The notes under the pieces were generated by a model. The model was not told where the DNA came from, made no database searches, and saw nothing but the letters and a program-made list of their open reading frames with translations. A DNA stretch of 64,000 nt from assembly GCA_043228905.1 (NCBI GenBank), contig JBHGNT010000005.1:1240001-1304000 (forward strand), given 5' to 3'. The position numbers and the translations under genes are program-made. Below are positions 24,107 to 60,403 of this stretch, piece after piece (the first letter of the stretch is position 1; every line of letters starts with the position of its first letter). The stretch is from Azolla caroliniana. Its lineage: Eukaryota; Plantae; Polypodiophyta.

Positions 24107-24172
24107 TAGAATATACATACACATATGGACACATATATATGTTGTATGGAACATACATACACACACAAACAT
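19050..24172. repeat. ~5-kb CA/TA-rich low-complexity tract with embedded 150-300 bp tandem duplications
   Basis: Near G-free + strand built of CATA/CACA/TATA. A ~150-180-bp unit occurs four times at ~19190-19837, with further duplicated blocks at ~23030-24170. Confidence 0.95.
19838..20015. mobile_element. Mutator-type fold-back MITE (178 bp)
   Basis: GGGAAAAG...CTTTTCCC termini, ~80-bp near-perfect inverted arms and a 9-bp TSD TTTTATATA (19829-19837, 20016-20024). Confidence 0.92.
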
Positions 24173-24175
24173 ATT

Positions 24176-24895: not shown

Positions 24896-25887
24896 ACCAA
24901 ATATAAACCTACTGTATTCCAAATATATTTTCTGATTTCTTTACTTCCATGTATATTAAGATTTCTTGCTTTTGTTGTTACATTTTATGATATAGGTCCA
25001 ATGTTGAAGATGGAAACGACATGAAATTTACAGCCTAAAATGAACTTCTTAGGGTTTTCTTTTTATATACTCAGTCTTTATAAGGGTAACCTTTATTGCA
25101 ATAAGTTTTTTAAGTAGATATTCCAATAACAAAATGATTTATTTTATTTCATTTTGATTTGGGTAAGAGTATGTGAATAGATGATGTCTTACATTTCAAA
25201 TGGAAATATGAAGTAGGTTGCCATTTGTTTGATCAATGTGTTTGAGAAAAAATAATATTATGTCTTTATATGAGTCTATATCCATGAAACCAAACATAAT
25301 GTTAATTTGTTAGTAATTTCATTATTGATATGCATTTTGGATTGTTCCATATGTGCTCTTTGAGATGTATGTGTTAAGTTCAAGATTGTTTTATTGTAAA
25401 TTACATTGTTTTTTATCACTCAATGTTCTTCATACGTCTCAATAAACTAAAAACAAAAACTTATATGTGGCTTGTATATGTTATACCTGTAGTGTTTTTG
25501 GGTAATGTTTCCTAATTGTGTGTACATTACTTTGTACTTTACACATTGTGTTTTCAATCTATGTGGCACTTAATGAAACATTTCTAGGAATTTGCATATG
25601 ATGTTTAATGTCGATTCATAATTTTGCGAGTCATCAATTGTAAAGATGGTCATTGATCCCTTCTAGGATCACAACCTATGTGTGCATGTATATTTTATAT
25701 GTAAGGGTATTTAAAATGGGTGGTTATCAAAAAATATATTGGTAATAAGGGGTATTTTTATTAATCTTTTTTCTACAGAAGGGTTACTAAAATAGTAAAA
25801 ACCATACGTATAAGGGGTTTATAAATGATGTCATGAACGCACGTGATACAACCTTCTTATGTATAGTGGAGTCCCCGGGGGTAGCGA

Positions 25888-26339
25888 TACCGTGGGGGAA
25901 CGAGATGAGCCGAGAAGAGTTATTAGCAGCGCGGATAAGGCAACTTGAAAGAAGACCTGAAGATTTAGAAAAAGCGCGAAAGATGATGAAGGCAGGCCGA
26001 GTAAAGAACAAAGTTCGGTTCGACAACACGCATCGACTTCGTCCCAAGAAGATTGAAGAAGGGGATTGGGTTTTAGTTTACGACATCACCCTTGACAATC
26101 AACATAGTACAACAAGGAAGTTCGCAAGAAGATGGTTCGGGCCGTATGTGGTGACAAGTGCCAACGATAATGCCACATACCACCTTACGGAACTAGACGG
26201 ATCAAGGTTGGTCGTACCCATTGCGGGAAAAAGAGTAAAGCTTTTCAAGAAAAGACAAGACAAGGATCCTGACCTCGATTACCTCGACGATGAACATAAT
26301 AGGCCGGATGAAAATGAAGACATGGAGGAATCTAATTGA
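25888..26339 (+). pseudogene. pol: C-terminal remainder of gypsy integrase (GPY/F module, no chromodomain)
   Basis: IPWGNEMSREELLAARIRQL...GDWVLV...KFARRWFGPYVV continues the frame interrupted at 18813. Confidence 0.9.
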
Positions 26340-26398
26340 TCATCGTAGCCGAAATCTCACTTCTTCTCTTCTTGGCACGTACCGAAGGACGTGCGGTT

Positions 26399-26411
26399 TG
26401 GTGGGGGTGGA
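26399..26411 (+). promoter_or_regulatory. Polypurine tract
   Basis: G-rich GGTGGGGGTGGA immediately before the 3' LTR. Confidence 0.75.
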
Positions 26412-27433
26412 TGTCGTGAAGATTTTCGGTAATAGTGTGAAAATCCCATAAAATGTACAAAATCGAGTATGAATCATGTAATACAATAATTGTGAAGATA
26501 ACATTTTTAATATCTAAGTACAAAATGATGGAGGTTTCGAATGCACTTTATTACACGAGAAATGGACAACTAAATGTCAAGATATGAGGGTATAAAGTTT
26601 GTGAAAAGAAAAGAGAAAATTGTGAGATATCCCACATAGGCACGACAAATACGGCTCTCATCATATATAAGGAGGAGCAAAAGATATTATCTTTGTGTCT
26701 ATGTGTGGAGCATAGAGAGTTCAAGGTAACTTGAACTTAGAGTGGAGGTGGCTAGCTACTCGTAAAAGGTTTTGGCCAACCAAAACCGAACCGGCGATGG
26801 AGCCGGTGATCCGACGGCATGCGGCGGCGGCACCGATATCCGGCGTCGGTATCCGGCATCCGGCGGCGGCACCAGTATCCGGCGTCGGCATCCGGCGACG
26901 GTATTCGGCGAACCGACGACTAGATAAAATAAATATATAAGAATATATACATATTTACATATACAAGGAGGGCAAGTATGGATTCAAACCTTGCACCTCC
27001 AAGTTAGGAGTCAAATGGCTTACCATTAAGCCATAATATTTAGTTGAAATTATATTTCTATCATTGTAGTTTTACATGTAAATTCTCATCCATGAGTGCT
27101 AAAATGAGTGACATGGTTAGCATGCACCACATGTAATACTTAAGCGCCAAATGGCAAACATGCAATTTATGCATGTCTTGTACCCTCACATGCATCATAT
27201 GCATGAGAGCATCTATAAAAGAGGGAAGGGGGAGGAGAAAAACATGGTTTTTTTTATGAAAATTAAGAAGGAGAAATTCGTTGTCAAATCAATCGTGTAA
27301 TCTCATCTTCTCTCTTTCCCAATCTATCTTAAGTACTTTCTCGCCAAAGCTTGTATCGACTCTAAATCCTTCTGGTCCAGAACCCCGGCGGTTCCGCCTC
27401 ACGATCCGCGCGTAGTGACGGATCTTCACGACA
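26412..27433 (+). repeat. 3' LTR (1022 bp)
   Basis: Matches 12501-13514. By eye the only differences are two C/T substitutions near the 5' end and an 8-bp indel (~26954). Confidence 0.97.
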
Positions 27434-36300: not shown

Positions 36301-36503
36301 GCATCATCATTAGCCCTAAATTTATTATGCCCCCTGCCCCCACCACCACACACATTTCTTTTACTTCTTCCTCCATTGGTTTGGGTAGAATCAAAGGTTT
36401 AATGAACTCCACACAAAAAAACCCACCACTTCTTGCCGTTTTCCCTCAACTTAAAATCCTGGACCTTCCTTTTTGTGAAGAGCTTTAATCATCTAGCTAC
36501 CTA

Positions 36504-39360
36504 ATGGAAACCATCCATTGTTCATTTGCCTTAATGACCAACAATACCAATATCTCAATGCTTGCTGCCTTACTCTTATTGATCCTTATTCCATTACCTA
36601 CCTCTTCTTCTTCTTCTTCTTCTTCTAAATTTTCCAATTCTTCTTTTAACTCCGACTCTCAATTATACCATGAGTATGCCCTCATACTACTAGAGATTAA
36701 GTCTCTTCTCATTGATCCAACGCACTCCTTGCAAAGTTGGTCTATGGACAAATCTTCTTCAGTTTGCATGGATTGGGTTGGCATAACTTGTACCAATACC
36801 AATTCTTCCTCAGATAATCACCATACCGATCAGGCTATTATCACTAATTCCTCTCTCGACAATGCCCACATGACCGGCTACGATGTGATTACTACCATTA
36901 ATCTCGCCAATAAGAACCTCTCTGGTTCTCTCTCCCCTGCCATTGGCTCTCTCACCTCTCTTCAAGTCCTCAACCTAACCAGCAATTGGCTCTCTGACTC
37001 TCTACCCATTCAACTCATGGATTGCCGGAGCCTACAGAAACTAGATCTTTCCACTAACAACTTCTCTGGTGAGATACCTGTTGGTTTCTCTAAGCTTGCC
37101 AACATAGAGGTAATTGATCTTTGGACTAATTCCTTTGTTGGGTCTATACCTCAGGACATTGTGCTTTGCTCTAATCTCCATTACCTAGACTTGGGTGGTA
37201 GCTACCTTGAGGGTTCAATACCACCTGATATTGGAAACCTCACTAAACTAAGATACCTCACATTGGCTGGTAACTTGCTGAGTGGTTTTATCCCCACATC
37301 TATCAAGCTCTTGTCTCAATTAGAATGGCTGTATTTAGGCTATAATGAACTGAATGGAATCATACCTTATGAAATAGGTGAATTAACTAGGCTTAACCAT
37401 CTTGATCTAGTGCATAATAACCTATCTGGACCCTTCCCTCCTAGTATCACCAACCTAACTGGGTTGCAAAACCTCTTCTTATATGACAACATGATTGAAG
37501 GTCCAATCCCACCGTCTGTATCTAATCTAACCCAGCTTTTGTCTCTAGATTTGAGTAACAACAGGATGGTGGGCACTATCCCTGCAGGGATTTCTAACCT
37601 AAAAAACCTTCAAATCCTCAATCTCTTCTCTAATGGCTTCAATGGGGAGATACCCAATAGCATTGTGAACCTGAATAACTTGCAAGTGTTAGCCCTTTGG
37701 AAGAATTCATTGTACGGTGAGGTGCCAGCAGGGTTAGGTATGAATTCACCCTTAATGGAGGTAGACCTATCTAGCAATCAGTTGACAGGACCTATCCCCC
37801 AAGGTCTGTGTGCATCTAAGGTTCTTAAGAAGCTCATATTATTCACAAATTACATGAATGGACCCATCCCAACAGGTTTATCCCATTGCCATAGCTTGCG
37901 AAGGGTGAGGATACAAGGGAATCTCTTCAATGGGACCTTCCCAAGAGCATTTGGAAGTCTTCCCTTTGTGTATTACTTGGACATTTCTTCTAACAATTTG
38001 AATGGAAATCTGGATGATTTCACTTGGAACATGCCATCCCTCCAAGTCCTCCATCTTCAAAGCAATCACTTCAGGGGGTCTATACCTCCTTCCCTTCTCA
38101 AAACCTCAAAATCCCTTTTCACACTAGACCTCTCCCACAATGCTTTGTCGGGAAGCATCCCTCTGGAGATCGGCTCCTTGTCGGAGCTCAACACATTCAA
38201 TGTTAGTGGGAATGCTATCGAAGGAGAGATGAACGATGGGTTGCTAAAGTGTGTGAAAATGGTGTCTTTAGACCTTAGCAATAACAACCTAAGTGGTCAA
38301 ATCCCGCCACAATTGGCTAACATGAAGATGTTAAGCACGCTGGACATATCGTGTAACAACTTGTCTGGGTCTATACCCCTTGAATTAGGGGGCATGGAGT
38401 CCCTTGTATTTGTTAATGTCTCATTCAATCGTCTATCCGGCAAGGTTCCACTCAATGGTGCCTTTATGAACATTAATGCAAGTGCCACCCAGGGTAATGA
38501 AGGTCTTTGTGGAGGAACCAGCCTTGGTCCTTGCACTGCCAGTGAAGCTACTAATGCGAATGTCATATCTTTGAAGACAAGAATCATTGCAATTCTCCTC
38601 TTGATTTGTCTCTTGTTGGCTATGGCTTGCCTATGCCACCTTATATGGAAGCTCAAGCAAGTAGGTTTCCTCGACGCAACCACCAATATCGTCGGTGCCT
38701 TAACAAAGATGACAGGAAAAGCGAGACGAAGGAAGGCGATTCGAACTAAAAGGTGGGGAGAATGGAGCCTCCAGCTATTCCAACAAGTGAACCCTAGCAT
38801 AGAAGAAATCTTGGAAGCTATAAACAATCAAGAGATTCATCTCTTGGAAAAGAGGCACTCTTCCTCTCGGGGTAGTCATATCATGTACAAGAGCAACACC
38901 CAAGAAGGAGAAACATTTGCAATCATGGAGTTGACACTAACCTATGGCTCTATGAATAACGAGGGGTTTCGTTCCCTCGAGGACGTGCTTCGGATGATGG
39001 GCACATCAACACACCCGAACGTTGTGAACGTATACGGGATATGCTCATGCGTAGCTAGCTCTATAGTGGTGTTTGAAGTGGTAGATGGTATTAGACTCAG
39101 CAGTTTGCTTAATGGTTTCTCATATGATATCGAGCAAGGTGGTGAGCATCACTTGGATTGGGCCAAAAGGCTCGACATTGCTATTGGTATTGCGGAAGCG
39201 TTGGTTCACTTGCATAGCTTGTCCATTATCTATGGATGTGTGTGCTCTTACAACGTGCTCGTGGAATGGAGAACCCTTGGTGTAGTAGCTCGATTGCTCC
39301 CGCCCACCACTTCCGGTACTGCACGGCTTATTGTTCGTCACGATTCGATAAAAGATGAAG
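36504..39360 (+). CDS. LRR receptor-like (pseudo)kinase, SKM1/At2g25790-like, exon 1
   Basis: Signal peptide, LRRNT (CMDWVGITC), ~21 plant LRRs, GNEGLCG cap, TM helix (IIAILLLICLLLAMACLC) and a degenerate kinase. LDLGGSYLEG, WLYLGYNELNGIIPYEIGELTRLNHLDLVHNNL and GAFMNINASA recall At2g25790. Splice donor GAAG|GTAAAC at 39361. Confidence 0.92.
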
Positions 39361-39838
39361 GTAAACAAACAAGCATGCACTGTCCTTTCTTTCTCTGCTT
39401 TTTCTTGTCTTCATTTTTTAAAATAATGGTAGATGAGACTAGGATATGTCCCAGAGGCTCACGTCCAATGGTGTCCAATACCCCTCTATGTTTATTGGAA
39501 AATCTGGAATGGCAAGGGATAAGCCACACAATTGGACTGTACATATATATGCATGGTTGGGTCGTGAATCATGTCTGATTTTATTGGGTGCTTGTACATC
39601 AAAATGACGCACAGAATGCTCAACATTATTGGGTAACTAACTGCAACTAAGTACAAGGGGTAGCAAATTACAACTAGTAAGGTATGTAATGGGGCTGCAG
39701 TCGCCCTTCCTTACATGTGGTGTTAGATGGGGTAGTGGCATTTTGCAGGATGTGTGAGTGAGTCTAAGGCTGCAAGACAAGGTATATTGAATTGTAAATG
39801 AAGAATATTATGCATTTGCTCATAAAGAATGTGTATAG

Positions 39839-44430: not shown

Positions 44431-45295
44431 TGTCGTGAAGATCCATCACTATGTGCGGATCGTGAGGCGGAACCACTGGGGTCTTGGACCGGAAGGATTC
44501 GAAGTTTGCACTAGTTTAGCGAGAAAGTATTTAAGATAGATTGAAAGAGAGAGAGAGAGAGAGAGAGATTAAGATTGAACCCTTGACTTTAGACTTAAGA
44601 AACAAGATACACCATCAATTGGATAACGAATTTTCTTCTTCTTAAATTCTTGAATCATACATAGCCCCTCCTTTTTTCTTTTTTATCCACTCTTTTATAG
44701 ATGCCCCCATGCATATGATGCATGTGGGGTACAAGACATGCATAAAATGCATGATGCATGTTTACCATTTGGCGCTTATGTGTTACATGTGATGCATGAT
44801 AACCATGTCACTCATTTAAGCTCTCATATGAGAATTTTCATGTAAAACTATAATGATAAAAATTATAACTTTAAGGAAATGACTTGGCTTAGTGGTAAGT
44901 ATATTGCTTTCTATCTTGGAGGTGCAAGGTTCAAGTCTTTTGGACCAAATATCTTTAAAACACCATGCACCGCGATCATCCGACCCGACCGATCCATCCA
45001 ATTTGCACCCGTTTGGTCTGGCCCGGTTCGGTCCACATCCCGAGGTCACCAAGTGCCGCATCCTGAGGTCGCCACATAACTTCATACCCACATAACTTGA
45101 CACTTAGATGTCCGTTTGTTATATAACAAAGTACATTCAAAAACTCTTCAAGACCTCCATCTTTTTGTACCAAGATATTAAACTTATTTAAAATAGTATC
45201 TTCACTATTATTGTTTTATATTTCATGAGAAGAACCGCACTCGATTTCGTATGTTCCTCACAAGTTTCACACTATCGTCGAAAATCTTCACGACA
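44431..45295 (-). mobile_element. Solo LTR related to the 12501-27433 family
   Basis: Same TGTCGTGAAGAT/ATCTTCACGACA termini and clear reverse-complement similarity to both ends and the TATA region of 12501-13514. The central part is diverged. Flanks ACGT / ACGC. Confidence 0.92.
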
Positions 45296-45382
45296 ACGCC
45301 TATGGTGGCACAAGGAGGAAGTGGCCCGAGGTGGAACTACCAGCCCCCATGCTGGCTATTTCCAGCTCACTTACCACCCTCC

Positions 45383-45672
45383 TGTCATAACTAGACTCGA
45401 ACCCATAACCTTTTGTTACACGGGTCGAGACTTTACCATTAGGTTATGAGTTGTAATTTGAAGGATATTATTTTCATTTAGGTTTTATTAGGAAATTGAT
45501 GTATATTCCAGATTTCTCTGGAACATTCTAGAAACTTCAGGAGTATTCCTGAAGACACTATAAAAGGAGGCGCAAGGCATTAGTTCGAACCAAATCGGTT
45601 CAACGCCAGTCTTAAGCCTTCTAACTACTGTTGTATATCTTCCGTCATATAATACATATATCTTTCGCATCA

Positions 45673-45718
<46 letters not shown>

Positions 45719-45851
45719 ACTCATTCCTTCTCTCAAAGTTCGACACCTCTCATAGTACTAATCCTTCTCTGTCTTAGTACTATTCCCCAACAATAGTACT
45801 AATCCTTCTTTTAGTACTAATTCCTTCTCTGCCTTAATAGAGTTCCTGACA
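45383..45851 (+). repeat. LTR-A (469 bp)
   Basis: TGTCA...TGACA ends, TATAAAA at 45559-45565, a (CT)n tract and four TAGTACTA repeats in U5. Confidence 0.97.
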
Positions 45852-45853
45852 GT

Positions 45854-45865
45854 TTGAACCGATTT
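45854..45865 (+). promoter_or_regulatory. Self-priming-type primer binding site
   Basis: TTGAACCGATTT lacks the TGG of a tRNA PBS and is the exact complement of AAATCGGTTCAA at 45592-45603 in the LTR. A second copy lies on the minus strand at 48453-48464. Confidence 0.85.
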
Positions 45866-47221
45866 GACCTTGGCTGGGTCCATAGATATGCCTTCTGAGG
45901 AGATGACATAGCCGAGAAACTCCACTTGGTTGCACCCGAAACTACATTTCTCTAACTTTGCATACAGACCATGTTCTCGAAGTCGTTTTAGTACTAATAG
46001 TACATGAGAATCATGTTCTTCTTGGGTCTTTGAATAAACCAGTAGATCATCCAAATAGATGATCAAAAAATCATCCAAGAGGTCTCGAAATATATCATTC
46101 GCCATGTGCTGGAAGACTGCCGGCGCATTAGTGAGTCCGAACGGCATGACCGTATACTCGAAGTGCCCATATCTGGTGCGAAACGCGGTCTTCCATTCAT
46201 CTCCTGGTCGGATCCGTACGAGGTTATAGGCTCCTCGTAAGTCGATCTTCGTGAAGAACCTGGCACCGTTGATCCGTTCTAAAAGACTTGAGATAAGGGG
46301 AAGAGCATACCTATTTCTTACTGTGACCTTATTCAAGCCACGGTAATCTACAACGAGTCGAAGCGAGCCATCTTTTTTCTTGACGAAGAAAATGGGTGCG
46401 CCGGCTGGAGATTTCGAATGCCGAATGAAACCGTTCTCCAAATTCTCCTCTATATAGGCTCGAAGGACTTCTAGCTCGGTTGGTGACAAATTGTAGATCG
46501 GCCCCCATGGCGGCTCTTTTCCCGGTTGTAAGTCGATGGCGCAGTCGTACGGCCGATGATGAGGAAGTGTGTTGGCTTGTACTTTATCGAACACATCAGC
46601 ATACTGACGATACTTCTCGGGAAGTTGAACGGTGGACTCCTCTTTGGTGGTGCTGGAGGGTTGTACTGATATTGCAAAGAGAAACATTTCCTCCTTGCGC
46701 CCTTCCTCACGCAACTGACGTAGCGAAATGGTTGCAACCTTCTGGGTAGATCCTTGGGTTTGTCGCAACCGGATTTCCCTTGTCCTCCAATCTATGTCTG
46801 GGTCATGTAACTCGAACCATGGTAATCCTAAAACTATGGGATGTTCTGGAATACTAATAATATTAAATGATACTACACATGTTAAGTTATCTAGGACAAT
46901 ATTAACGGGTTCCGACTCTTCTATGATATTACCAGAAGCAATGGGACGACCATCAATGACTACTACTGAGGCTGGACATGGGAGCTTTCTGAGAGATATC
47001 TGATGAGCTCGGGCAAAATTCCTATCCATGAAGCAAGAATTAGCTCCGGAATCTAGAAGGGCTAAGGTATGTACTGGAGGGGTACTTTTAGTACTAACTG
47101 CTACTTGGACTACGAACACATCACTAACTTGCTTAGAGGGAATGGAACCACTAATGGGCTGCACAGATCTAGGGCTGTCCAACCAAACGGCTCCTATTTT
47201 GGCTGGACTTAGTCGTTTAAC
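45863..47221 (-). pseudogene. pol: Pol copy 1 (protease + RT), truncated at the inversion junction
   Basis: ALLDSGANSCF, DLRGAY, MPFGL, YLDD. Homology stops at ISMDPAKVK; the remaining ORF tail is read-through into antisense LTR-A. Confidence 0.93.
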
Positions 47222-48378
47222 TCTTCTTCTAATTGGCTAAGGACATCAAATTTGTTTGCGAGATTCGGACTATTAGTACTATTAGGACTATTATGACTAT
47301 GAGGATTATCAGAGATTCCTACTGACATAGACTCGGGTTTAGTATAGTCAGAACTAACAATGACTTGGTTTACCTGCCTTCTTGGTCTATGGGGACAGTT
47401 TATCGCGATATGCCCTGGTCCACCGCAATAAAGGCATAATCGGTTTGTTCGGCGTCGTTGCTTTTCCTCCTCCGATAGCGGCCCACGACGACGTGTAGTG
47501 TCAATTTCCATTGGAGTTGGAGTACTTACTGGAGGCGCATTATGTGACTCCCTTTGAAAAGGTTTCGCTACCATTGAGGCATAGGTAGGCTCGGATCTTG
47601 CCCTCGGCATCTGAAATTGTCGTTCCGAACGTCGCTCGAAGAGGCGGTTGTCACATCTGACCGCTCGACTGATTGCTTCTGTTAATGATTTTGGCTCTTC
47701 AGGGAAAGTCAAGAGTAAATCCTTGACATCGTTGCGTAGACCATAGCGGAACTGCTCCATCAATGCTTGATCATCCCAGGGGATATCGGCGGCGAGTAGG
47801 CGGAAATCTGCAGCATATGCGGAGGCTGGACGGTCACCTTGGCGTAATCGCCGGATTTTGTTGATTGCAGTCCTTATGCTGTCAGTATCTCCAAAACATG
47901 CTTTAAACTCACTTATGAATTCTTCAAAATTATTTAGTACTGGAGATTCCTTTTCTAGTAGCGGAGCGAACCATGCTAATGCTGAGCCATTTAACAACGT
48001 GCCTACTAAACCCACTCGTGATGCATCGGTGGGATATCGGGACGGATGCATTTGAATAACTAACCGTACCTGGTTAAGAAACCCTCTAAACTGCGATCGC
48101 GTTCCATCGAACTTCGTGGGAAGGCCAATCTTGGGTTCTTTATGAATCCCTTGTGCTCCGTGCCCTTGTTGTTGCATTGCTACGATGGTTGCTTCGAGTT
48201 GTTGCACGCGTAACGCAAGTTCCCCATGCTGTTGTTGCGTTTGCTGCTTTTCTAAGGAAATTTGCTGAAGATCCCCCAACAAGCGTTGATTTTCTTGTTC
48301 CAAAGCATGAAACTTCTCTTTCAAGCATTGAAATTCCGAGAAAACGGATTGATACTCTTCAGCGCTAACGGTGGCCAT
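47209..48378 (-). CDS. gag: Intact Gag (389 aa) with CCHC zinc knuckle
   Basis: N-terminal coiled coil, PTKFDGTRSQFRGFLNQ (Tf1/sushi/PEG10-type capsid), LRQG..SAYAADF, PMEID and CLYCGGPGHIAINC. Confidence 0.95.
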   Translation of the reverse strand: MATVSAEEYQSVFSEFQCLKEKFHALEQENQRLLGDLQQISLEKQQTQQQHGELALRVQQLEATIVAMQQQGHGAQGIHKEPKIGLPTKFDGTRSQFRGFLNQVRLVIQMHPSRYPTDASRVGLVGTLLNGSALAWFAPLLEKESPVLNNFEEFISEFKACFGDTDSIRTAINKIRRLRQGDRPASAYAADFRLLAADIPWDDQALMEQFRYGLRNDVKDLLLTFPEEPKSLTEAISRAVRCDNRLFERRSERQFQMPRARSEPTYASMVAKPFQRESHNAPPVSTPTPMEIDTTRRRGPLSEEEKQRRRTNRLCLYCGGPGHIAINCPHRPRRQVNQVIVSSDYTKPESMSVGISDNPHSHNSPNSTNSPNLANKFDVLSQLEEELND

Positions 48379-48529
48379 GGGATGAAGGAAAAGGGAAATA
48401 AGAGACTAGTAGGAAAGGAGAGAGACAGAAGGAAGAGGGAGACTAGTAGGGGAAATCGGTTCAAACTGTCAGGAACTCTATTAAGGCAGAGAAGGAATTA
48501 GTACTAAAAGTACCCCTCCAGTACATAAC

Positions 48530-48662
48530 TGTCAGGAACTCTATTAAGGCAGAGAAGGAATTAGTACTAAAAGAAGGATTAGTACTATTGTTGGGGAATA
48601 GTACTAAGACAGAGAAGGATTAGTACTATGAGAGGTGTCGAACTTTGAGAGAAGGAATGAGT

Positions 48663-48706
<44 letters not shown>

Positions 48707-48996
48707 TGATGCGAAAGATATATGTATTATATGACGGAAGATATACAACAGTAGTTAGAAGGCTTAAGACTGGCGTTGAACCGATTTGGTTCGAACTAAT
48801 GCCTTGCGCCTCCTTTTATAGTGTCTTCAGGAATACTCCTGAAGTTTCTAGAATGTTCCAGAGAAATCTGGAATATACATCAATTTCCTAATAAAACCTA
48901 AATGAAAATAATATCCTTCAAATTACAACTCATAACCTAATGGTAAAGTCTCGACCCGTGTAACAAAAGGTTATGGGTTGGAGTCTAGTTATGACA
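48530..48996 (-). repeat. LTR-B, internal and inverted (467 bp)
   Basis: Reverse complement of 54135-54601 with one substitution seen (48980). Preceded on the minus strand by the PPT (48997-49009). Confidence 0.97.
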
Positions 48997-51900
48997 CTAT
49001 CCCCCCTTTAAAACGACGAGTTTCACGAGTCGTTTTGGATTGAGGACCCGGTTTCTCGGGATATCGTCGATGGAAGTCTTCTAGAAGAGCACGAGCATTG
49101 GTCACATTCTCGATCGGTTCCCAAGTACGCTCGCTGGGACTATATCCTAGCCAATCGACTAGATAGTAGAGCTTGTTGCGAACAATCTTGGAATCGAGGA
49201 TGGCAGCGACCTCATACTCAGGTCCATCTTCGAGCTCGATAGGAGGTGGAGGTTGTATAGTACGTCCTGGGATAGTGCTCTCGTGATAGGGTTCGAGGAG
49301 AGAACTATGAAACACCGGGTGTATCCGAAGTTGCGGAGGTAGCTCGAGACGAAAAGCGACATCATTAATCTTCCCGATAATACGGAAAGGACCTAATCGT
49401 CGATAATCCAACTTCTCACATGGGCGAGTAGTCTTGATGTGTCGTCGTAGCAGCCACACCCGATCTCCAATGTTAAAACTGGATGGAAGTCGATGACGAT
49501 CTGCGTAGTCCTTGTGTGATTGTTGAGCTTGCTGGAGTTGAGTAGATAAATCCGCTTGTATCTTGCGTAACCGCTCCAAACGATCCTCCGCGCAAGGATT
49601 TGTGGACACTTCTGGGGTTTCAAGGACACACCACCGGGGATGATATCCCGTATAAGCGTAGAATGGCGTGACTTTAGTCGATGCGTGGATAGCGTTATTA
49701 TAGGCAAATTCGGCGAACGGAAGAATATCTGCCCAGTCATTCTGATGATAGTTGAGAAAGCACCGCAGATACTGCTCCAGTGTTTGATTTGTTCGTTCGG
49801 CTTGACCGTCGGTTTGTGGGTGGTAGCCGGAGGAGAGGTTACAAGTGACCTTCAGCATTTTAAAAAGGTGCTTCCAGAATTTTGACACAAACTGGGGTCC
49901 ACGATCGCTGATGATATTATCAGGGAGTCCATGATGCCGACATACTTCCCGCATGACAATTTCGGCGGTGTCTTCACTAGATATTTCTTTAGTACATGGT
50001 AAGAAATGAGCCATCTTCGTATATCGATCCACCACTGTGAGAATCGCACTGAATCCCTTAGAGACTGGAAGATCTGTAATGAAGTCAAGAGCAATGGATT
50101 GCCATGGCTTGCTTGGAATTGGTAATGGTTCTAATAAACCATATGGATGATGTCTTGGCATTTTCGCTCTGCAGCATGTATCGCAAGTCCGAACAAAATC
50201 TTCGACAAATTGTCGCATACGGGGCCACCAGAATGATCGTTGTACTAAATCTAATGTTTTAGTACTACCAAAATGTCCTGCTGTATATGTGTCCTGGCAG
50301 TTTTGTACTACGCGAAGGCGGCAAGAACCATTAGGAACATACAAAAGTTCTTTAAAGAAGAGTAATCCATCACAGTATTTGAATTGCCGATAATCCGTAC
50401 CTGGTGATTGTGATTGTGAACATGACGCTCGAGAGGGGTCAATTTGTGCTAGTATAGCTTGGGCGAAAGCGTCAGTCTTCAAGTCCTCACGTATAGTATT
50501 GGTAATGTCGGAATCCACGGGCATGTCAAAGATCTGTGCTGCTTGCAGTCGTGCTGGACCCAAGATTACTTGCTTCTGGTTATCGAAAGCTGGCTCACCG
50601 GGACGTGGTGTTAGATACGAACGCCGTGATAATGCATCTGCCTTCCCTTGGTGCTTCCCCGGACGATATGTAATTTTGAAGTCGAAGCGTGTGAGGAAAT
50701 GGGCCCACCGAGCTTGACGTCGATTCAGTACACGAGCATCTTGAAAGTAGGCAAGGTTCTTGTGGTCACTGAATACAGTGACCTGATGAGGAGATCCCTC
50801 CAGGAAATGCCTCCATTGCATAAAAGAATCAACTATTGCTAATAGCTCTTTATCATGAATTTCGTAGTTGATTTCGGCGGCGTCAAACTTACGGGAGTGG
50901 AAAGCCACAGGATGTAGCTTCTCGTCGTTACCCTGTTGTGACAGAATGCTCCCCAATGCGAAATCCGATGCATCAGCTTCGATAATGAATGGTTTTTCCG
51001 GATCCACATGACCTAAAATTGGAGCTGATGTAAACGCCTTCTTAAGACTCTCGAAAGCCATGTCCGTCTCTTTAGACCAAATGAATGATTGTCCCTTCCT
51101 GGTGAGCTGTGTGAGAGGCAGCACAATTTTTGAGTAATTTTGTATGAACTTCCGGTAGAAATTTGCAAAGCCTAGGAAGCATTGCACATCCCGCACCGAA
51201 CGCGGAGTGTGCCATTCTATCACCGTTTTGACCTTGGCTGGGTCCATAGATATGCCTTCTGAGGAGATGACATAGCCGAGAAACTCCACTTGGTTGCACC
51301 CGAAACTACATTTCTCTAACTTTGCATACAGACCATGTTCTCGAAGTCGTTTTAGTACTAATAGTACATGAGAATCATGTTCTTCTTGGGTCTTTGAATA
51401 AACCAGTAGATCATCCAAATAGATGATCAAAAAATCATCCAAGAGGTCTCGAAATATATCATTCGCCATGTGCTGGAAGACTGCCGGCGCATTAGTGAGT
51501 CCGAACGGCATGACCGTATACTCGAAGTGCCCATATCTGGTGCGAAACGCGGTCTTCCATTCATCTCCTGGTCGGATCCGTACGAGGTTATAGGCTCCTC
51601 GTAAGTCGATCTTCGTGAAGAACCTGGCACCGTTGATCCGTTCTAAAAGACTTGAGATAAGGGGAAGAGCATACCTATTTCTTACTGTGACCTTATTCAA
51701 GCCACGGTAATCTACAACGAGTCGAAGCGAGCCATCTTTTTTCTTGACGAAGAAAATGGGTGCGCCGGCTGGAGATTTCGAATGCCGAATGAAACCGTTC
51801 TCCAAATTCTCCTCTATATAGGCTCGAAGGACTTCTAGCTCGGTTGGTGACAAATTGTAGATCGGCCCCCATGGCGGCTCTTTTCCCGGTTGTAAGTCGA

Positions 51901-53302
51901 TGGCGCAGTCGTACGGCCGATGATGAGGAAGTGTGTTGGCTTGTACTTTATCGAACACATCAGCATACTGACGATACTTCTCGGGAAGTTGAACGGTGGA
52001 CTCCTCTTTGGTGGTGCTGGAGGGTTGTACTGATATTGCAAAGAGAAACATTTCCTCCTTGCGCCCTTCCTCACGCAACTGACGTAGCGAAATGGTTGCA
52101 ACCTTCTGGGTAGATCCTTGGGTTTGTCGCAACCGGATTTCCCTTGTCCTCCAATCTATGTCTGGGTCATGTAACTCGAACCATGGTAATCCTAAAACTA
52201 TGGGATGTTCTGGAATACTAATAATATTAAATGATACTACACATGTTAAGTTATCTAGGACAATATTAACGGGTTCCGACTCTTCTATGATATTACCAGA
52301 AGCAATGGGACGACCATCAATGACTACTACTGAGGCTGGACATGGGAGCTTTCTGAGAGATATCTGATGAGCTCGGGCAAAATTCCTATCCATGAAGCAA
52401 GAATTAGCTCCGGAATCTAGAAGGGCTAAGGTATGTACTGGAGGGGTACTTACTGGAGGCGCATTATGTGACTCCCTTTGAAAAGGTTTCGCTACCATTG
52501 AGGCATAGGTAGGCTCGGATCTTGCCCTCGGCATCTGAAATTGTCGTTCCGAACGTCGCTCGAAGAGGCGGTTGTCACATCTGACCGCTCGACTGATTGC
52601 TTCTGTTAATGATTTTGGCTCTTCAGGGAAAGTCAAGAGTAAATCCTTGACATCGTTGCGTAGACCATAGCGGAACTGCTCCATCAATGCTTGATCATCC
52701 CAGGGGATATCGGCGGCGAGTAGGCGGAAATCTGCAGCATATGCGGAGGCTGGACGGTCACCTTGGCGTAATCGCCGGATTTTGTTGATTGCAGTCCTTA
52801 TGCTGTCAGTATCTCCAAAACATGCTTTAAACTCACTTATGAATTCTTCAAAATTATTTAGTACTGGAGATTCCTTTTCTAGTAGCGGAGCGAACCATGC
52901 TAATGCTGAGCCATTTAACAACGTGCCTACTAAACCCACTCGTGATGCATCGGTGGGATATCGGGACGGATGCATTTGAATAACTAACCGTACCTGGTTA
53001 AGAAACCCTCTAAACTGCGATCGCGTTCCATCGAACTTCGTGGGAAGGCCAATCTTGGGTTCTTTATGAATCCCTTGTGCTCCGTGCCCTTGTTGTTGCA
53101 TTGCTACGATGGTTGCTTCGAGTTGTTGCACGCGTAACGCAAGTTCCCCATGCTGTTGTTGCGTTTGCTGCTTTTCTAAGGAAATTTGCTGAAGATCCCC
53201 CAACAAGCGTTGATTTTCTTGTTCCAAAGCATGAAACTTCTCTTTCAAGCATTGAAATTCCGAGAAAACGGATTGATACTCTTCAGCGCTAACGGTGGCC
53301 AT
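48989..53302 (-). CDS. pol: Fused Gag(delta)-Pol polyprotein, 1437 aa: capsid, PR, RT, RNase H, integrase, chromodomain
   Basis: Uninterrupted ORF with DSGA, YLDD, ADAS...E...DHKNL...AD, DDE, GPF and YEVAAILDS...YLVDWLGY...TWEP. Lacks 440 bp present in copy 1 (47082-47521). Confidence 0.95.
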   Translation of the reverse strand: MATVSAEEYQSVFSEFQCLKEKFHALEQENQRLLGDLQQISLEKQQTQQQHGELALRVQQLEATIVAMQQQGHGAQGIHKEPKIGLPTKFDGTRSQFRGFLNQVRLVIQMHPSRYPTDASRVGLVGTLLNGSALAWFAPLLEKESPVLNNFEEFISEFKACFGDTDSIRTAINKIRRLRQGDRPASAYAADFRLLAADIPWDDQALMEQFRYGLRNDVKDLLLTFPEEPKSLTEAISRAVRCDNRLFERRSERQFQMPRARSEPTYASMVAKPFQRESHNAPPVSTPPVHTLALLDSGANSCFMDRNFARAHQISLRKLPCPASVVVIDGRPIASGNIIEESEPVNIVLDNLTCVVSFNIISIPEHPIVLGLPWFELHDPDIDWRTREIRLRQTQGSTQKVATISLRQLREEGRKEEMFLFAISVQPSSTTKEESTVQLPEKYRQYADVFDKVQANTLPHHRPYDCAIDLQPGKEPPWGPIYNLSPTELEVLRAYIEENLENGFIRHSKSPAGAPIFFVKKKDGSLRLVVDYRGLNKVTVRNRYALPLISSLLERINGARFFTKIDLRGAYNLVRIRPGDEWKTAFRTRYGHFEYTVMPFGLTNAPAVFQHMANDIFRDLLDDFLIIYLDDLLVYSKTQEEHDSHVLLVLKRLREHGLYAKLEKCSFGCNQVEFLGYVISSEGISMDPAKVKTVIEWHTPRSVRDVQCFLGFANFYRKFIQNYSKIVLPLTQLTRKGQSFIWSKETDMAFESLKKAFTSAPILGHVDPEKPFIIEADASDFALGSILSQQGNDEKLHPVAFHSRKFDAAEINYEIHDKELLAIVDSFMQWRHFLEGSPHQVTVFSDHKNLAYFQDARVLNRRQARWAHFLTRFDFKITYRPGKHQGKADALSRRSYLTPRPGEPAFDNQKQVILGPARLQAAQIFDMPVDSDITNTIREDLKTDAFAQAILAQIDPSRASCSQSQSPGTDYRQFKYCDGLLFFKELLYVPNGSCRLRVVQNCQDTYTAGHFGSTKTLDLVQRSFWWPRMRQFVEDFVRTCDTCCRAKMPRHHPYGLLEPLPIPSKPWQSIALDFITDLPVSKGFSAILTVVDRYTKMAHFLPCTKEISSEDTAEIVMREVCRHHGLPDNIISDRGPQFVSKFWKHLFKMLKVTCNLSSGYHPQTDGQAERTNQTLEQYLRCFLNYHQNDWADILPFAEFAYNNAIHASTKVTPFYAYTGYHPRWCVLETPEVSTNPCAEDRLERLRKIQADLSTQLQQAQQSHKDYADRHRLPSSFNIGDRVWLLRRHIKTTRPCEKLDYRRLGPFRIIGKINDVAFRLELPPQLRIHPVFHSSLLEPYHESTIPGRTIQPPPPIELEDGPEYEVAAILDSKIVRNKLYYLVDWLGYSPSERTWEPIENVTNARALLEDFHRRYPEKPGPQSKTTRETRRFKGGIVS

Positions 53303-53377
53303 GGGATGAAGGAAAAGGGAAATAAGAGACTAGTAGGAAAGGAGAGAGACAGAAGGAAGAGGGAGACTAGTAGGACA

Positions 53378-54142
53378 AACTATCATCAGAATGACTGGGC
53401 AGATATTCTTCCGTTCGCCGAATTTGCCTATAATAACGCTATCCACGCATCGACTAAAGTCACGCCATTCTACGCTTATACGGGATATCATCCCCGGTGG
53501 TGTGTCCTTGAAACCCCAGAAGTGTCCACAAATCCTTGCGCTGAGGATCGTTTGGAGCGGTTACGCAAGATACAAGCGGATTTATCTACTCAACTCCAGC
53601 AAGCTCAACAATCACACAAGGACTACGCAGATCGTCATCGACTTCCATCCAGTTTTAACATTGGAGATCGGGTGTGGCTGCTACGACGACACATCAAGAC
53701 TACTCGCCCATGTGAGAAGTTAGATTATCGACGATTAGGTCCTTTCCGTATTATCGGGAAGATTAATGATGTCGCTTTTCGTCTCGAGCTACCTCCGCAA
53801 CTTCGGATACACCCGGTGTTTCATAGTTCTCTCCTCGAACCCTATCACGAGAGCACTATCCCAGGACGTACTATACAACCTCCACCTCCTATCGAGCTCG
53901 AAGATGGACCTGAGTATGAGGTCGCTGCCATCCTCGATTCCAAGATTGTTCGCAACAAGCTCTACTATCTAGTCGATTGGCTAGGATATAGTCCCAGCGA
54001 GCGTACTTGGGAACCGATCGAGAATGTGACCAATGCTCGTGCTCTTCTAGAAGACTTCCATCGACGATATCCCGAGAAACCGGGTCCTCAATCCAAAACG
54101 ACTCGTGAAACTCGTCGTTTTAAAGGGGGGATAGTGTCATAA
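53378..54142 (+). pseudogene. pol: Second, sense-oriented copy of the integrase C-terminus + chromodomain
   Basis: Reverse complement of 48989-49753 with two synonymous differences seen (~53542, ~53722). Followed by PPT AAAGGGGGGATAG (54122-54134). Confidence 0.93.
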
Positions 54143-54424
54143 CTAGACTCGAACCCATAACCTTTTGTTACACGGGTCGAGACTTTACCATTAGGTTATG
54201 AGTTGTAATTTGAAGGATATTATTTTCATTTAGGTTTTATTAGGAAATTGATGTATATTCCAGATTTCTCTGGAACATTCTAGAAACTTCAGGAGTATTC
54301 CTGAAGACACTATAAAAGGAGGCGCAAGGCATTAGTTCGAACCAAATCGGTTCAACGCCAGTCTTAAGCCTTCTAACTACTGTTGTATATCTTCCGTCAT
54401 ATAATACATATATCTTTCGCATCA

Positions 54425-54468
<44 letters not shown>

Positions 54469-54601
54469 ACTCATTCCTTCTCTCAAAGTTCGACACCTCT
54501 CATAGTACTAATCCTTCTCTGTCTTAGTACTATTCCCCAACAATAGTACTAATCCTTCTTTTAGTACTAATTCCTTCTCTGCCTTAATAGAGTTCCTGAC
54601 A
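54135..54601 (+). repeat. LTR-C (467 bp)
   Basis: Appears identical to LTR-A apart from one CT unit. Confidence 0.97.
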
Positions 54602-55973
54602 CCTCCCTTCGATGTCGACCCCAAGAGGTGTCTCGTACTAGCCATCACTGAAGTGCACCGTTTTTAGCTATAGGTACTTACATTAAGTAGTTAGTCCGAA
54701 AGGCGATGTAACTAGTCTCCTTTTCTTGAACCTGATCGGAGGGAGATTCCTTGTTCTATGTATAAGCCTCCTTGTACAGTCTCTTTGTAATAATCCTTGA
54801 ACTTGATCGGAAAGTAGCTTCATTTTGGAAAAAAAAAACACACTCACAAAACTTTGAAAAAATGGTTGATTACCAATATAGTTTAAAAAAAAAAGAAGTG
54901 AAGCTCATTTTTGTGAATTCCAAAATATGCTTCAAACGACCTTTGTGGTTCATAAGAATGATAAAGGAAGACATGAGTTCAAGCCTTGGCCTCACTTGTC
55001 TAACATGATGGAATCCTTTGTAATTAATAATGCTAACAATAAAATGGTTCTTGTATTTTCTTGTGAAAAAGAAGAAGAAGAAAGAAATGAGGGTAGGCAT
55101 TGCATTGGATAATTTCGTTATGTAAACAACATGAAGTCAAGGAGACAATGGATGGAGACTTCGCAACACTTGAGGTAATGCACATTATATTTGAATAGAA
55201 ACAACATTTGTGTAGGAAATAGAGGATATAGAAATATTTGATATTTTTTCATCGTAACAAGGCGGTGACAAGGTATCCCTCTCATGGACATAGATGAACA
55301 ATTTTTTATTGAAACAAAAGCTAGCATTTTTTTTTCCCAAAAAAAAGAAGCATGTTGTGCATTACTTAGATAGAAAAGAAATTTGAGGACATAAAACAAT
55401 GTCCTGGAGATGTAAATCAATTTTAATATTGAATGGACTCACTCCCTAGCATCTAACAATAGAAAAGAAAAGATTTTAAAGTCGTAAAGTAAACAAAGGA
55501 ATGGAAATACAAATCAAATTTGATTGTGGATGCAATGGGAAAGTAGCTCCTTTTTTGGAAAATTATGATTGTGGATGGACTCACTCCCCAACTAAATAAA
55601 GAATGGGGAAATTCAGGAATTTAGACCAAACTAAAGAAGCAAGAAGCGAAAGAAAGTGGGCAATTTATAAAGTATACCAATAACAAAGTTTCTACAATAC
55701 AAAAACAAAATTACATGGTTCACACAATTTTAGTAATGTTGTATTCATGTACTTTTTCTTTTCTTAAATGACACTCTCTCTTTTTTGAAAAAATATCCTC
55801 CATTGGTATTGAAATTACAGTGGCCAGAGGCAATATACAAAAAACCAGTCCAATAGTCCAATCTTTCTAAGTTAAGATAATTACATTTCACACACCCTCG
55901 AGTTGTATTCTCTCATAAAGTTTGAGAGCTTCATCTCCATTTCCATGCTCAACATATCATATCCAGTAAATCA

Positions 55974-58642: not shown

Positions 58643-59797
58643 TCACTTTGCCATGGACAGCTTACAATGAGCAATGGCACCTTGGATGGAAGCATGGAGT
58701 TCATAATGCATGCTCCCTAGGGAATGAGAAGATGGAATATTTACAAGATTGGACTTTCGAGAAGTGGCGATGGCATTGCCATGCTTCCTAGCGGGCACCC
58801 CCTTTAACGAGAAAATGTTGAGCTTGATCCCTTCATAGGTTTGCCAATACCTCTTGTCCTTCACTTGCTTCATAGGCACCTTGTGGGTTTGACCGGGGTT
58901 CATAGCACCAGGATTAGGTCTAGTGGCATGCGGGTCTGGGCCGGTAACGAATCGTGGGTCTACATGGGCTCGTGGGTTGACATTGGTGCTAAGGACATCC
59001 ATATGGTTGTTCCATATCTTGATGGGCCTTTTGGCCAACACATGTCTCCACTTCATCCCAAAGCTCAAAGGCCTATTGCCATGGTGGACCAGGCCACAGG
59101 TCCGAGCCTTACCAGCATTTCCATGCTCACACTCCTCAATCTCTGACTCGCCTGCCATGCTTCTCCTCATCTTCCTCACGAAATCGGAGCAGAGATATGC
59201 ATCAGACTCATGGCTGCTGCATAGCCCTGCACTGATCCTAAAACTAGCCCCACTATGGTTAGAGCTAGGGGCCTTGATGGACCGATTTGCACTACCGATC
59301 TTGGCTGGAATTCCAGCTGTGCAGGCTCTCTGATGATGAGTGGTCGCCCTTAGTCCACCCACATGAAGGTCGAATCGCGCGGAATTAGAAGTTGCCCACC
59401 TGTCACTGGCGATCGGATCCTTCATTACTCTGCAGGAATTGAATTGGAAGTCATTGATCCTCAGGATCGATGCAATGGTGAGGTTTCCTGCGTAGAGGAA
59501 GCTGTCTTCTTCTTCATCTTCTTGAGCGAAAGCCTCGTATAAGCATACCCTCTGTGGCTGCTTCATCCGATCGGAATCTGAGTTAAGAGGGGAATCGCGG
59601 GTAATTAGAGGGGCAGGATTAATAATATCAGAATCTGGATTAAGACGAATATCTCGGGTGATTATTGGAGGATTAACATCAGATTCTTGGGCGATTAACG
59701 ATGGGGGATCTGGATCAGCCTTAACGGAATCTAGGGGGATTAAGGGGGGATTAAGATGAGAATCTGTGGGGATGAATCCAGGATCTGATGCCGTCAT
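58643..59797 (-). CDS. BKI1/MAKR-like membrane-associated kinase regulator, single exon, 384 aa
   Basis: C-terminal SMHYELHASIQGAIAHCKLSM matches the MAKR/BKI1 IQGAIAHCKxS motif. Basic patches (KWRHVLAKRPIK, KQVKDKRY). GC-richer than flanks, with a TATA-like TATAAA on the minus strand at ~59909-59914. Confidence 0.82.
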   Translation of the reverse strand: MTASDPGFIPTDSHLNPPLIPLDSVKADPDPPSLIAQESDVNPPIITRDIRLNPDSDIINPAPLITRDSPLNSDSDRMKQPQRVCLYEAFAQEDEEEDSFLYAGNLTIASILRINDFQFNSCRVMKDPIASDRWATSNSARFDLHVGGLRATTHHQRACTAGIPAKIGSANRSIKAPSSNHSGASFRISAGLCSSHESDAYLCSDFVRKMRRSMAGESEIEECEHGNAGKARTCGLVHHGNRPLSFGMKWRHVLAKRPIKIWNNHMDVLSTNVNPRAHVDPRFVTGPDPHATRPNPGAMNPGQTHKVPMKQVKDKRYWQTYEGIKLNIFSLKGVPARKHGNAIATSRKSNLVNIPSSHSLGSMHYELHASIQGAIAHCKLSMAK

Positions 59798-60403
59798 AAT
59801 AGTAAATTAAATTAATTGGAATCCAAATGTAATATGTAATGGAAGTACAGGGAGAAGGGAGAACTGGGGTTTTCCACGACGGACTAGAAATGCGTGGCTT
59901 TTCCAGGATTTATACGTCCTAGGAAAAATAGAAATAAATAAATGAAAGGGGGGGGGGGGGTGGGAACAGAATTATAATTTCTGCAAAAACACAAACACAT
60001 AATTATTTATCGAGACACTCGATCCGTTATTTAAATAATTAAAATTTGCCCAAATAAAATAAATGCGTGTATCTCAGTTTTGATAAGACGTCGTGGTGTC
60101 TCTCTCTCGCCCTCATTTTAGTTTTTTATTTTTAAATATCTACATATGTATATTTATCAATCAAATCAGTTCAATCATTTTAGTGCAAACACAAAATAAT
60201 CTCCAGTTTACATGTATGTAATAATTCAAAATCAAATATTTGGCTTTAAAAAAAATAACAGCGTTGCTTAACCAGATTTCGGTCGAACAAAAGGGCCCCA
60301 CAAAATCTTTCCTCTGTTTTCGAACTCAGCAGAATACGTTTATACTATCTATATCCTGCGAGTTACCCCTCCTGTTTTATAAAATTCAAAAATATACCCT
60401 TCA

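What the first reader, a model, noticed from the sequence alone, without database searches (positions are those of the whole stretch)
45559..45865. tRNA-independent, Tf1-style self-priming signal in a plant retrotransposon
Seen: the 12 nt just after the LTR (TTGAACCGATTT, 45854-45865) are perfectly complementary to AAATCGGTTCAA (45592-45603). That sequence starts 33 nt after the first T of TATAAAA (45559), where the transcript should start. Imperfect pairing extends between R (CGCCAGTCTTAAGCC) and the U5 end (GCCTTAATAGAGTTCCTGACA). Known: S. pombe Tf1 primes reverse transcription with the first 11 nt of its own RNA. Inference: this plant Tcn1-like family uses the same fungal-type mechanism, consistent with the proposed fungal affinity of the clade.
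Basis: partly seen in the sequence, partly recalled or inferred. Interest (0 to 1): 0.7.

Follow-up and report, generated by a model that had tools for sequence, protein, structure and literature searches.

The report
Self-priming plant retrotransposon with trapped intermediates
This plant jumping gene has, right after its left repeat, 12 bases that match the likely start of its own RNA rather than the tail of a tRNA, so it likely primes its own copying, a trick already predicted in print for this group, and broken sister copies likely preserve the primer and the cut made just behind it.

Summary
Observation confirmed, but this copy is rearranged: after 45865 the DNA is antisense RT, and the normal leader lies at 48453-48466 (-). 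The element is a young Ty3/gypsy chromovirus with Tcn1-clade features. Self-priming is well supported. None of 3000 shuffles reaches the 12-nt match. Partner sequences change together: one compensatory pair in a sister copy, another primer in a second family, and 14 of 48 environmental relatives (controls 0 of 48), 31-37 nt after a TATA-like box. The concept is known: Neumann 2019 predicts self-priming for 83% of 1500 Tcn1 elements, and this scan noted it on other genomes. Extra evidence from genome copies, not found in ten literature searches: (1) in 6 of 10 independent aberrant insertions, a primer-plus-antisense-U5 segment stops within 5 nt of the predicted cut after base 12; (2) one U3-less copy starts at the primer's first base; (3) the bases just after the PBS are hypervariable (31 alleles in 64 copies) unlike a tRNA-primed control, but also unlike a second self-priming family. 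TSS and cleavage are unmeasured; the tRNA set checked was incomplete; the third 'pretzel' duplex of Tf1 is not predicted.

The parts
45378..45382 (+). Left target-site duplication CCTCC
   Evidence: Same 5-mer at 54602-54606; an uninterrupted copy of the target repeat at window 231-320 (-) has it once
45383..45851 (+). 5' LTR (469 bp, TG...CA)
   Evidence: 0 substitutions and 2 gap columns against the 3' LTR
45559..45565 (+). TATA box (predicted)
   Evidence: Sequence; 31-37 nt spacing to the primer is kept across families
45583..45591 (+). U3 arm predicted to fold on the 3' half of the R 12-mer in the RNA's 3' copy of R
   Evidence: Pairing probability 0.97-1.0 for primer bases 6-12 in the 3' LTR fold; not significant against shuffles here (z -1.5), strong in family 2 (z -7.5)
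45592..45603 (+). Predicted self-primer, first 12 nt of the RNA (AAATCGGTTCAA)
   Evidence: Exact complement of the PBS; intact in 90 of 96 copies; copy L381 starts at its first base
45604..45611 (+). Predicted cut site (45603|45604) and short inner duplex with the GT spacer and the LTR's GAC
   Evidence: Folds; aberrant copies stop at positions equivalent to 45602-45608
45852..45853 (+). 2-nt GT spacer between LTR and PBS
   Evidence: Sequence; 2-nt spacer in 13 of the 14 environmental hits
45854..45865 (+). Primer-binding site TTGAACCGATTT; in this copy joined at its last base to antisense RT
   Evidence: 7 of 8 bases match the RT antisense strand at the joint
45858..48510 (-). Inverted partial copy: U5 end, PBS, gag, PR, RT (truncated)
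48453..48466 (-). Spacer and PBS in their normal context, followed by the leader and gag
48490..48530 (+). About 30-nt piece of the protease region at a template-switch joint
48528..48996 (-). Third, internal LTR ending in CA plus GT
   Evidence: 1 substitution against the outer LTRs
48989..53329 (-). gag-pol with a 431-bp internal deletion, read as one 1446-aa frame (gag, PR, RT, RNase H, IN, SH3, chromodomain)
53374..53378 (.). Joint where the antisense strand stops 0-3 nt short of the PBS and turns into sense integrase
53378..54134 (+). Integrase C-terminus, chromodomain and polypurine tract (54122-54134)
54135..54601 (+). 3' LTR (467 bp)
54602..54606 (+). Right target-site duplication CCTCC

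Best explanation
This is a young Ty3/gypsy chromovirus family with Tcn1-clade features whose PBS is the exact complement of a 12-mer in its own LTR, and it likely primes reverse transcription as Tf1 does: the RNA likely starts at 45592, its first 12 bases likely fold onto the PBS, and a cut after base 12 likely frees them as the primer. Shown: complementarity, 2-nt spacer, TATA spacing, covariation, and the end points of aberrant copies. Inferred: (1) TSS at 45592; (2) cleavage at 45603|45604, by RNase H by analogy with Tf1; (3) minus strong-stop DNA running from the GT spacer to R base 13; (4) a primer left on the minus strand and copied into the plus strand, which then ends at the last PBS base and gains untemplated bases, so that second-strand transfer often rewrites the next 1-3 bases. 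The window's own copy is likely a mis-primed, template-switched cDNA integrated as one piece.
For: Match beyond chance: 0 of 3000 shuffles reach 11 nt. Primer:PBS helix is the dominant fold, mean pair probability 0.91-0.93 in 7 of 8 copies and 0.58 in one. Covariation: L293 (RT 94% identical) has AAATTGGTTCAA with TTGAACCAATTT; family 2 of this genome (RT about 68%) has AAGGTGAACAA with TTGTTCACCTT at TATA+32; L312 keeps the 12-mer at TATA+33 in a different LTR; 14 of 48 environmental loci show a 10-12-nt complement 1-2 nt after CA and 31-37 nt after a TATA-like box, 9 distinct strings (8 if two nested ones are merged), against 0 of 48 for reverse-only and 0 of 48 for complement-only controls. 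Trapped intermediates: 12 loci join U3-R12 to antisense U5; they are 10 independent events; in 6 the antisense part stops at reference 220-226 (primer 210-221) and jumps to unrelated internal sites; binomial p about 1e-7 for a 7-nt window in 250 nt (site predicted beforehand, width chosen afterwards). L381 lacks U3 and starts at primer base 1 (the only such copy). Post-PBS scar: diversity 0.57-0.68 at +1 to +3 against 0.003-0.008 in flanks; 6 of 125 flank-identical pairs share the allele. [quoted passage not shown]
Against: No TSS, cleavage product or cDNA end was measured; RNA reads were too few and from diverged copies. Of the 10 events, 2 stop 12-16 nt short of the predicted cut, 1 reads through it and 1 is interrupted by another LTR; microhomology blurs each end by 1-4 nt. 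The one such joint in family 2 (L320) reads through the whole LTR. Family 2 has no scar (27 of 29 share one allele), so the scar is not a general mark of self-priming, and the tRNA-primed control also has a weak one (24 of 30 share one allele). The third duplex of the Tf1 'pretzel' (sequence 3' of the PBS with the LTR) is not predicted in 7 of 8 copies. 34 of the 48 environmental loci failed the test (many lack a 5' LTR, some have only 8-9-nt matches or no TATA). In three relatives (L256, L237, L227) the primer:PBS helix is not favoured in the fold. The tRNA set tested was partial (71 distinct, 16 anticodons).
Confidence: 0.9

Rival explanations
1. A host tRNA or tRNA fragment primes, and the LTR match is a by-product. 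The primer's 3' half resembles a tRNA T-loop (GGTTCAA).
For: One tRNA-Gln(ttg) call (L356) holds an 11-nt internal match to spacer-plus-PBS, in its T-loop region; several tRNA-Asn calls hold 9 nt. The tRNA set was partial and no nuclear initiator tRNA was identified in it.
Against: No TGG at the PBS, so no mature tRNA 3' end fits. The match is internal and in one of 3 Gln sequences. A genome-wide pattern for a perfect T-arm holding the primer gave 1 hit, not called as a tRNA. Relatives change PBS and R together to sequences unlike each other. The neighbouring tRNA-primed family shows a normal TGG-type PBS matching tRNA-Trp genes.
Confidence: 0.04
2. The RNA 5' end pairs with the PBS and primes or blocks RT without a defined cut after base 12 (for example another RNA molecule's 5' fragment primes in trans, or RT simply stalls at the R:PBS duplex).
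For: A stop at base 13 would also arise if RT halts at an occupied R 12-mer; end points scatter from 220 to 238; the Tf1 third duplex is missing.
Against: An extendable 3' end at base 12 needs a cut; joints carry the primer fused directly to AC plus antisense U5 at all 12 loci. Trans versus cis could not be told apart here.
Confidence: 0.1
3. The inverted 12-mer is a DNA-level feature, and the odd joints come from genomic recombination between the two inverted copies.
For: Two inverted 12-bp copies about 260 bp apart could recombine; L320 and L377 read through R as a DNA template would.
Against: A clean inversion would leave antisense R followed by PBS and leader; 0 of 3 hits and 0 of 1 had that form. 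It does not explain the fixed TATA spacing or the absence of another primer site.
Confidence: 0.03
4. The post-PBS hypervariability is assembly error next to short homopolymers.
For: The site follows TTT and is often C/T-rich.
Against: Alleles include substitutions with G and A; flanks are nearly invariant; family 2 in the same assembly, with TT-CCC at the same place, is stable; contigs of another run also differ at +2 and +4 and one skips 150 bases from +1.
Confidence: 0.04

Closest known systems
Plant Tcn1 clade of chromoviruses (REXdb; Neumann et al. 2019, PMC6317226; passages and supplement table row read)
   Same: Chromodomain with aromatic cage, 5-bp TSD, size 5755 bp within 5466-9444, overlapping gag and pol frames, no tRNA PBS, complement of 10 or more nt in the 5' LTR starting 0-5 bp after the LTR.
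   Different: The paper's call is a sequence match only; the passages read give no covariation, end-point or scar evidence. Its element table and FASTA (Additional files 1 and 3) were too large to read, so whether this family is listed is unknown.
Tf1/Tf2 of Schizosaccharomyces pombe, with Tj1 and Tosmo1-3 (PMC7175516, PMC11042837, PMC4600332, bioRxiv 2022.12.06.519325; passages read)
   Same: Self-primer at the predicted RNA 5' end complementary to the PBS; predicted cut just behind it; PBS copy and untemplated bases at the plus-strand end would explain the joints and the scar.
   Different: 12 nt rather than 11; only two of the three 'pretzel' duplexes are predicted and the inner one is short; separate overlapping gag and pol frames; plant host; nothing tested at the bench.
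Tcn1 of Cryptococcus neoformans and SM-Tcn1 of Selaginella (PMC7175516, PMC2864245; passages read)
   Same: Cryptococcus Tcn1 was proposed to self-prime; SM-Tcn1 has similar size, two frames and a chromodomain.
   Different: Novikova et al. 2010 found no evidence for tRNA priming or self-priming in SM-Tcn1; here the signal is clear.

Membership tests
Plant Tcn1 clade | Ty3/gypsy domain order with C-terminal chromodomain | tested here: met
   Pfam gag, PR, RT, RNase H, IN, SH3, Chromo in order
Plant Tcn1 clade | Aromatic cage in the chromodomain | tested here: met
   EYEV...VDWLGY in the sequence; assignment of Y, W, Y to the cage is from my own knowledge of chromodomains
Plant Tcn1 clade | 5-bp TSD, 5.5-9.4 kb, overlapping gag and pol | tested here: met
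   TSD CCTCC; L012 is 5755 bp with gag 522-1715 overlapping pol 1691-5299 against the table row
Plant Tcn1 clade | RT groups with fungal and vertebrate Tf1/sushi-type elements, apart from other plant chromoviruses | tested here: met
   Quick tree of 39 rows: SH-aLRT 99 for the set with fungal, fish, frog and protist rows, excluding Closterium and Tanacetum; no bootstrap, long outgroup branch
Plant Tcn1 clade | Clusters with named Tcn1 reference elements | not testable with these tools
   No named Tcn1 sequence among the 120 listed hits; REXdb files too large
Plant Tcn1 clade | Host is a moss or club-moss | tested here: inconclusive
   A plant-type LRR receptor kinase lies in the window (LRRNT_2); the lineage within plants was not determined
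Tf1-type self-priming | PBS complementary to the RNA's first bases, kept by covariation | tested here: met
Tf1-type self-priming | No tRNA complementary to the PBS | tested here: inconclusive
   No TGG start; best match 11 nt, internal, in a partial set of 71 tRNA sequences
Tf1-type self-priming | Transcript starts at the primer's first base | tested here: inconclusive
   RNA reads too few; indirect support from TATA spacing and one U3-less copy
Tf1-type self-priming | Cleavage just 3' of the primer | tested here: inconclusive
   Indirect only: 6 of 10 aberrant events stop within 5 nt of the site
Tf1-type self-priming | Three-duplex 'pretzel' structure | tested here: not met
   Central duplex strong, inner duplex weak, duplex 3' of the PBS absent in 7 of 8 predicted folds; prediction only
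Tf1-type self-priming | RNase H dependence and rescue by compensatory changes | not testable with these tools
   Needs bench work

The most novel reading that the evidence does not exclude
This genome holds a fossil record of self-primed reverse transcription in a plant: integrated primer-plus-strong-stop DNA that marks the cut after base 12, and a junction rewritten at nearly every jump because the retained self-primer blocks the PBS, so that the second strand transfer runs through 1-3 untemplated bases instead of PBS annealing. Each insertion would then carry its own short barcode, and a U3 arm would mask the RNA's second copy of the primer.
Probability: 0.3. Interest if true: 0.62.

Novelty: new member of a known kind. 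Interest (0 to 1): 0.38.

Why it matters
Self-priming in plant Tcn1 elements rests, in the passages I read, on sequence complementarity alone, and one paper found no such signal in SM-Tcn1. Covariation and the end points of aberrant copies give independent, genome-only support for where the primer starts and ends. The same trick (reading strand ends from broken insertions) could test the many self-priming candidates in other lineages without cultures. The hypervariable junction makes a testable prediction about how second-strand transfer works when the primer is not removed, and may help tell sister insertions apart. The priming mode itself is not new.

Tried and rejected
RNA reads for the TSS: runs X15-X17 laid 12, 9 and 7 reads, mostly 90-95% alike, no pile-up of starts; no conclusion. 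Contigs of X10, X11, X1, X2 on 45200-46400: no joint across 45865; these are other samples, so the window's rearrangement was neither confirmed nor refuted by reads. Viral contigs gave 1 relative, without a hit in the scan. The first, looser scan of 52 loci gave 27 hits, about 11 at arbitrary TATA distances, so I used the anchored test with controls; 32 of the 80 loci fetched lacked enough upstream DNA and were left out. The scar as a general mark of self-priming was rejected by family 2. The U3 arm as a guard against fold-back is not supported: family 2 has a strong arm and still 1 such joint in 30 copies. The U3 hairpin is absent or not significant in L275, L227, L256 and in this family. Simple inversion was searched for and not found. 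The careful tree did not finish; only the quick tree is cited. PDB search gave Ty3 RT as nearest solved relative and nothing on priming. [quoted passage not shown] Ten literature searches showed no description of trapped strong-stop copies or of a post-PBS scar, but the library lacks most older and subscription papers.

Full report
1. Observation. The three motifs are at the stated coordinates and the two 12-mers are exact reverse complements. The LTR runs 45383-45851 and a GT spacer separates it from the PBS. In 3000 dinucleotide shuffles of the LTR the longest match was 10 nt.

2. Anatomy. The window holds one insertion, 45383-54601, with TSD CCTCC and an empty copy of the target repeat nearby. 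Its interior is rearranged. On the + strand: LTR, spacer and PBS; antisense RT, PR, gag, PBS and U5 end (45858-48510); a 30-nt sense piece; antisense of a whole element from LTR-plus-GT back to just before the PBS, with a 431-bp deletion (48528-53374); then sense integrase end, PPT and LTR. Pfam shows gag, PR, RT, RNase H, IN, SH3 and chromodomain. The genome has 266 exact LTR-end-plus-PBS matches. Sister copy L012 is 5755 bp with overlapping gag and pol.

3. Covariation. L293 (RT 94% identical) changes both partners at one pair. A second family in this genome (RT about 68%, 103 matches) uses an 11-nt pair at TATA+32. Eighteen loci chosen for holding both 12-mers kept TATA+33 in 17, one of them in an unrelated-looking LTR (L312). 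Of 80 environmental loci, 48 had enough upstream DNA; 14 of 48 passed an anchored test (complement of 10 or more nt, 1-3 nt after CA, 30-38 nt after a TATA-like box), with 9 distinct strings; reverse-only and complement-only controls gave 0 of 48 each. The primer:PBS helix dominates the predicted fold in this family, L293, family 2, L275 and L209, but not in L256, L237 or L227.

4. tRNA test. The PBS has no TGG start. Among 71 distinct tRNA sequences of 16 anticodons, a partial set, the best match was 11 nt, internal, in one tRNA-Gln call. A pattern for a perfect T-arm holding the primer gave one hit that is not called as a tRNA. The other gypsy family in the window has an ordinary PBS matching tRNA-Trp genes.

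5. Where the primer starts and ends. RNA reads were too few to map the TSS. Genome copies gave indirect evidence. (a) Twelve loci join U3 and the 12-mer directly to AC and antisense U5. Three are one duplicated event, leaving 10. Taking L012 as frame (primer 210-221), the antisense part ends at 226, 224, 222, 224, 220 and 224 in six events, at about 234 and 236 in two, reads through in one and is cut by another LTR in one; it then jumps to unrelated internal sites, never to PBS plus leader. The segment equals primer plus minus strong-stop DNA ending near base 13, not base 1. Binomial p is about 1e-7 for 6 of 10 in 7 of 250 positions; the width was chosen after seeing the data and short overlaps blur each end by 1-4 nt. 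The single family-2 joint reads through. No clean inversion product was found. (b) L381 lacks U3 and starts at primer base 1; it is the only such copy found. (c) In the window, the top strand leaves the element at the last PBS base, with 7 of 8 bases matching the RT target, and the antisense strand stops 0-3 nt before the PBS.

6. The scar. I examined 96 of the first 100 listed matches (of 266; the two window sites and the last two listed were left out). The search fixed the first 9 PBS bases; the free last three are TTT in 95 of 96. The next base is T 48, C 35, G 11, A 2. In 64 copies with all anchor motifs (32 dropped) there are 31 junction alleles. Diversity is 0.57-0.68 at +1 to +3 and 0.003-0.008 in the flanks. 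Pairs identical over about 634 flanking bases share the allele in 6 of 125 cases, no more than distant pairs (39 of 669); pairs are not independent. Controls: 24 of 30 tRNA-primed copies and 27 of 29 family-2 copies share one allele. So the scar is strong, starts exactly at the PBS end, and is specific to this family. Why family 2 lacks it is unexplained; its CCC junction might absorb C-rich additions (speculation).

7. Mechanism. Shown: sections 1-6. Inferred, by analogy with Tf1: transcription from 45592; fold of bases 1-12 on the PBS; cut after base 12; extension through the GT spacer and U5 to base 13; first transfer; plus strand copied through the retained primer, ending at the last PBS base and tailed without template; transfer with realignment of that tail, which rewrites 1-3 bases. 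For Tf1, PMC7175516 (passages) gives the 11-base primer and the RNase H cut; PMC11042837 (passages) says about half of cDNAs keep a PBS copy at the 3' end and most carry untemplated bases; PMC3035444 (passages) shows that RTs including Tf1's can extend 2-nt overlaps in vitro. Whether the PBS anneals in the second transfer cannot be decided from genome copies, since several silent generations with partial rewriting give the same pattern.

8. Known systems. PMC6317226 (passages and one supplement row) predicts self-priming for 83% of 1500 Tcn1 elements; its large supplements could not be read and may list this family. PMC2864245 (passages) found no priming signal in SM-Tcn1. bioRxiv 2022.12.06.519325 and PMC4600332 (passages) describe the three-duplex pretzel and Tj1; bioRxiv supplements are closed. 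PMC3601003 (passages) mentions hairpin priming in chromoviruses and no U3 arm in the passages shown. Here the third duplex is not predicted in 7 of 8 copies, so the element works like Tf1 but fails one structural feature in prediction. The quick tree puts the RT with fungal, vertebrate and protist elements, apart from Closterium and Tanacetum; no named Tcn1 reference was available, so the clade label rests on features. Earlier notes of this scan report the same layout in other genomes; I read them after finding the 2019 paper and they did not change the reading.

9. Verdict. Observation confirmed, interpretation supported (0.9), priming mode already predicted for the clade: new member of a known kind. 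The added value is the genome-only evidence for the primer's two ends and the family-specific scar, which ten searches did not show in print, with the primary Tf1 papers unavailable. Interest 0.38.

Noticed in passing
window 45383-54601: One insertion with a single TSD but three LTRs and a mostly inverted interior, joined at four template-switch points; LTRs differ by at most 1 substitution, so it is recent. Two joints fall at the PBS border.
   Followed up: yes
L277 family (e.g. G000:C12:8618700-8626700), L202, L209, L237: A hairpin across the U3-R border masks the primer sequence: 12-bp stem with a GGAA loop in family 2 (z -7.5), kept with another loop in L202, also in L209 (z -3.4) and L237 (z -3.1); absent in L275 and L227.
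   Followed up: partly
L381 = G000:C22:8495693-8498718: U3-less sister-subfamily copy fused at the primer's first base to sequence that reads to me like copia pol (recalled resemblance, not tested); a 3-base overlap is possible.
   Followed up: partly
L315, L375, L376: The same aberrant joint occurs three times, so a rearranged copy was itself duplicated.
   Followed up: no
L063 = G000:C2:12268420-12271442: PBS joined through a short overlap to the PPT end and a new LTR, giving tandem LTRs; resembles the PBS/PPT-homology insertions described for Tf1 in PMC11042837.
   Followed up: no
window 12501-27236: A second gypsy element with a tRNA-Trp PBS (13523-13540) after an 8-nt spacer and a long (CA/TA)-rich tract at about 19000-24200; 417 exact LTR-PBS copies. 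Used as control; 5 of 30 copies differ at the first base after the PBS. Its PPT was not examined.
   Followed up: partly
L141 = G000:C1:12869043-12872065: A copy of the self-priming family is inserted 12 nt behind the PBS of the tRNA-Trp family.
   Followed up: no
window 36489-39578 (+): 1029-aa LRR receptor-like kinase frame (LRRNT_2, LRRs, kinase).
   Followed up: no
window 58643-59806 (-) and 24272-25024 (+): Open frames of 387 and 250 aa without Pfam match.
   Followed up: no
G000:C5:17987927-17993943, C2:20108306-20111379, C11:692924-696555: Tandem arrays of tRNA-Lys/Asn, tRNA-Ile and tRNA-Arg genes.
   Followed up: no
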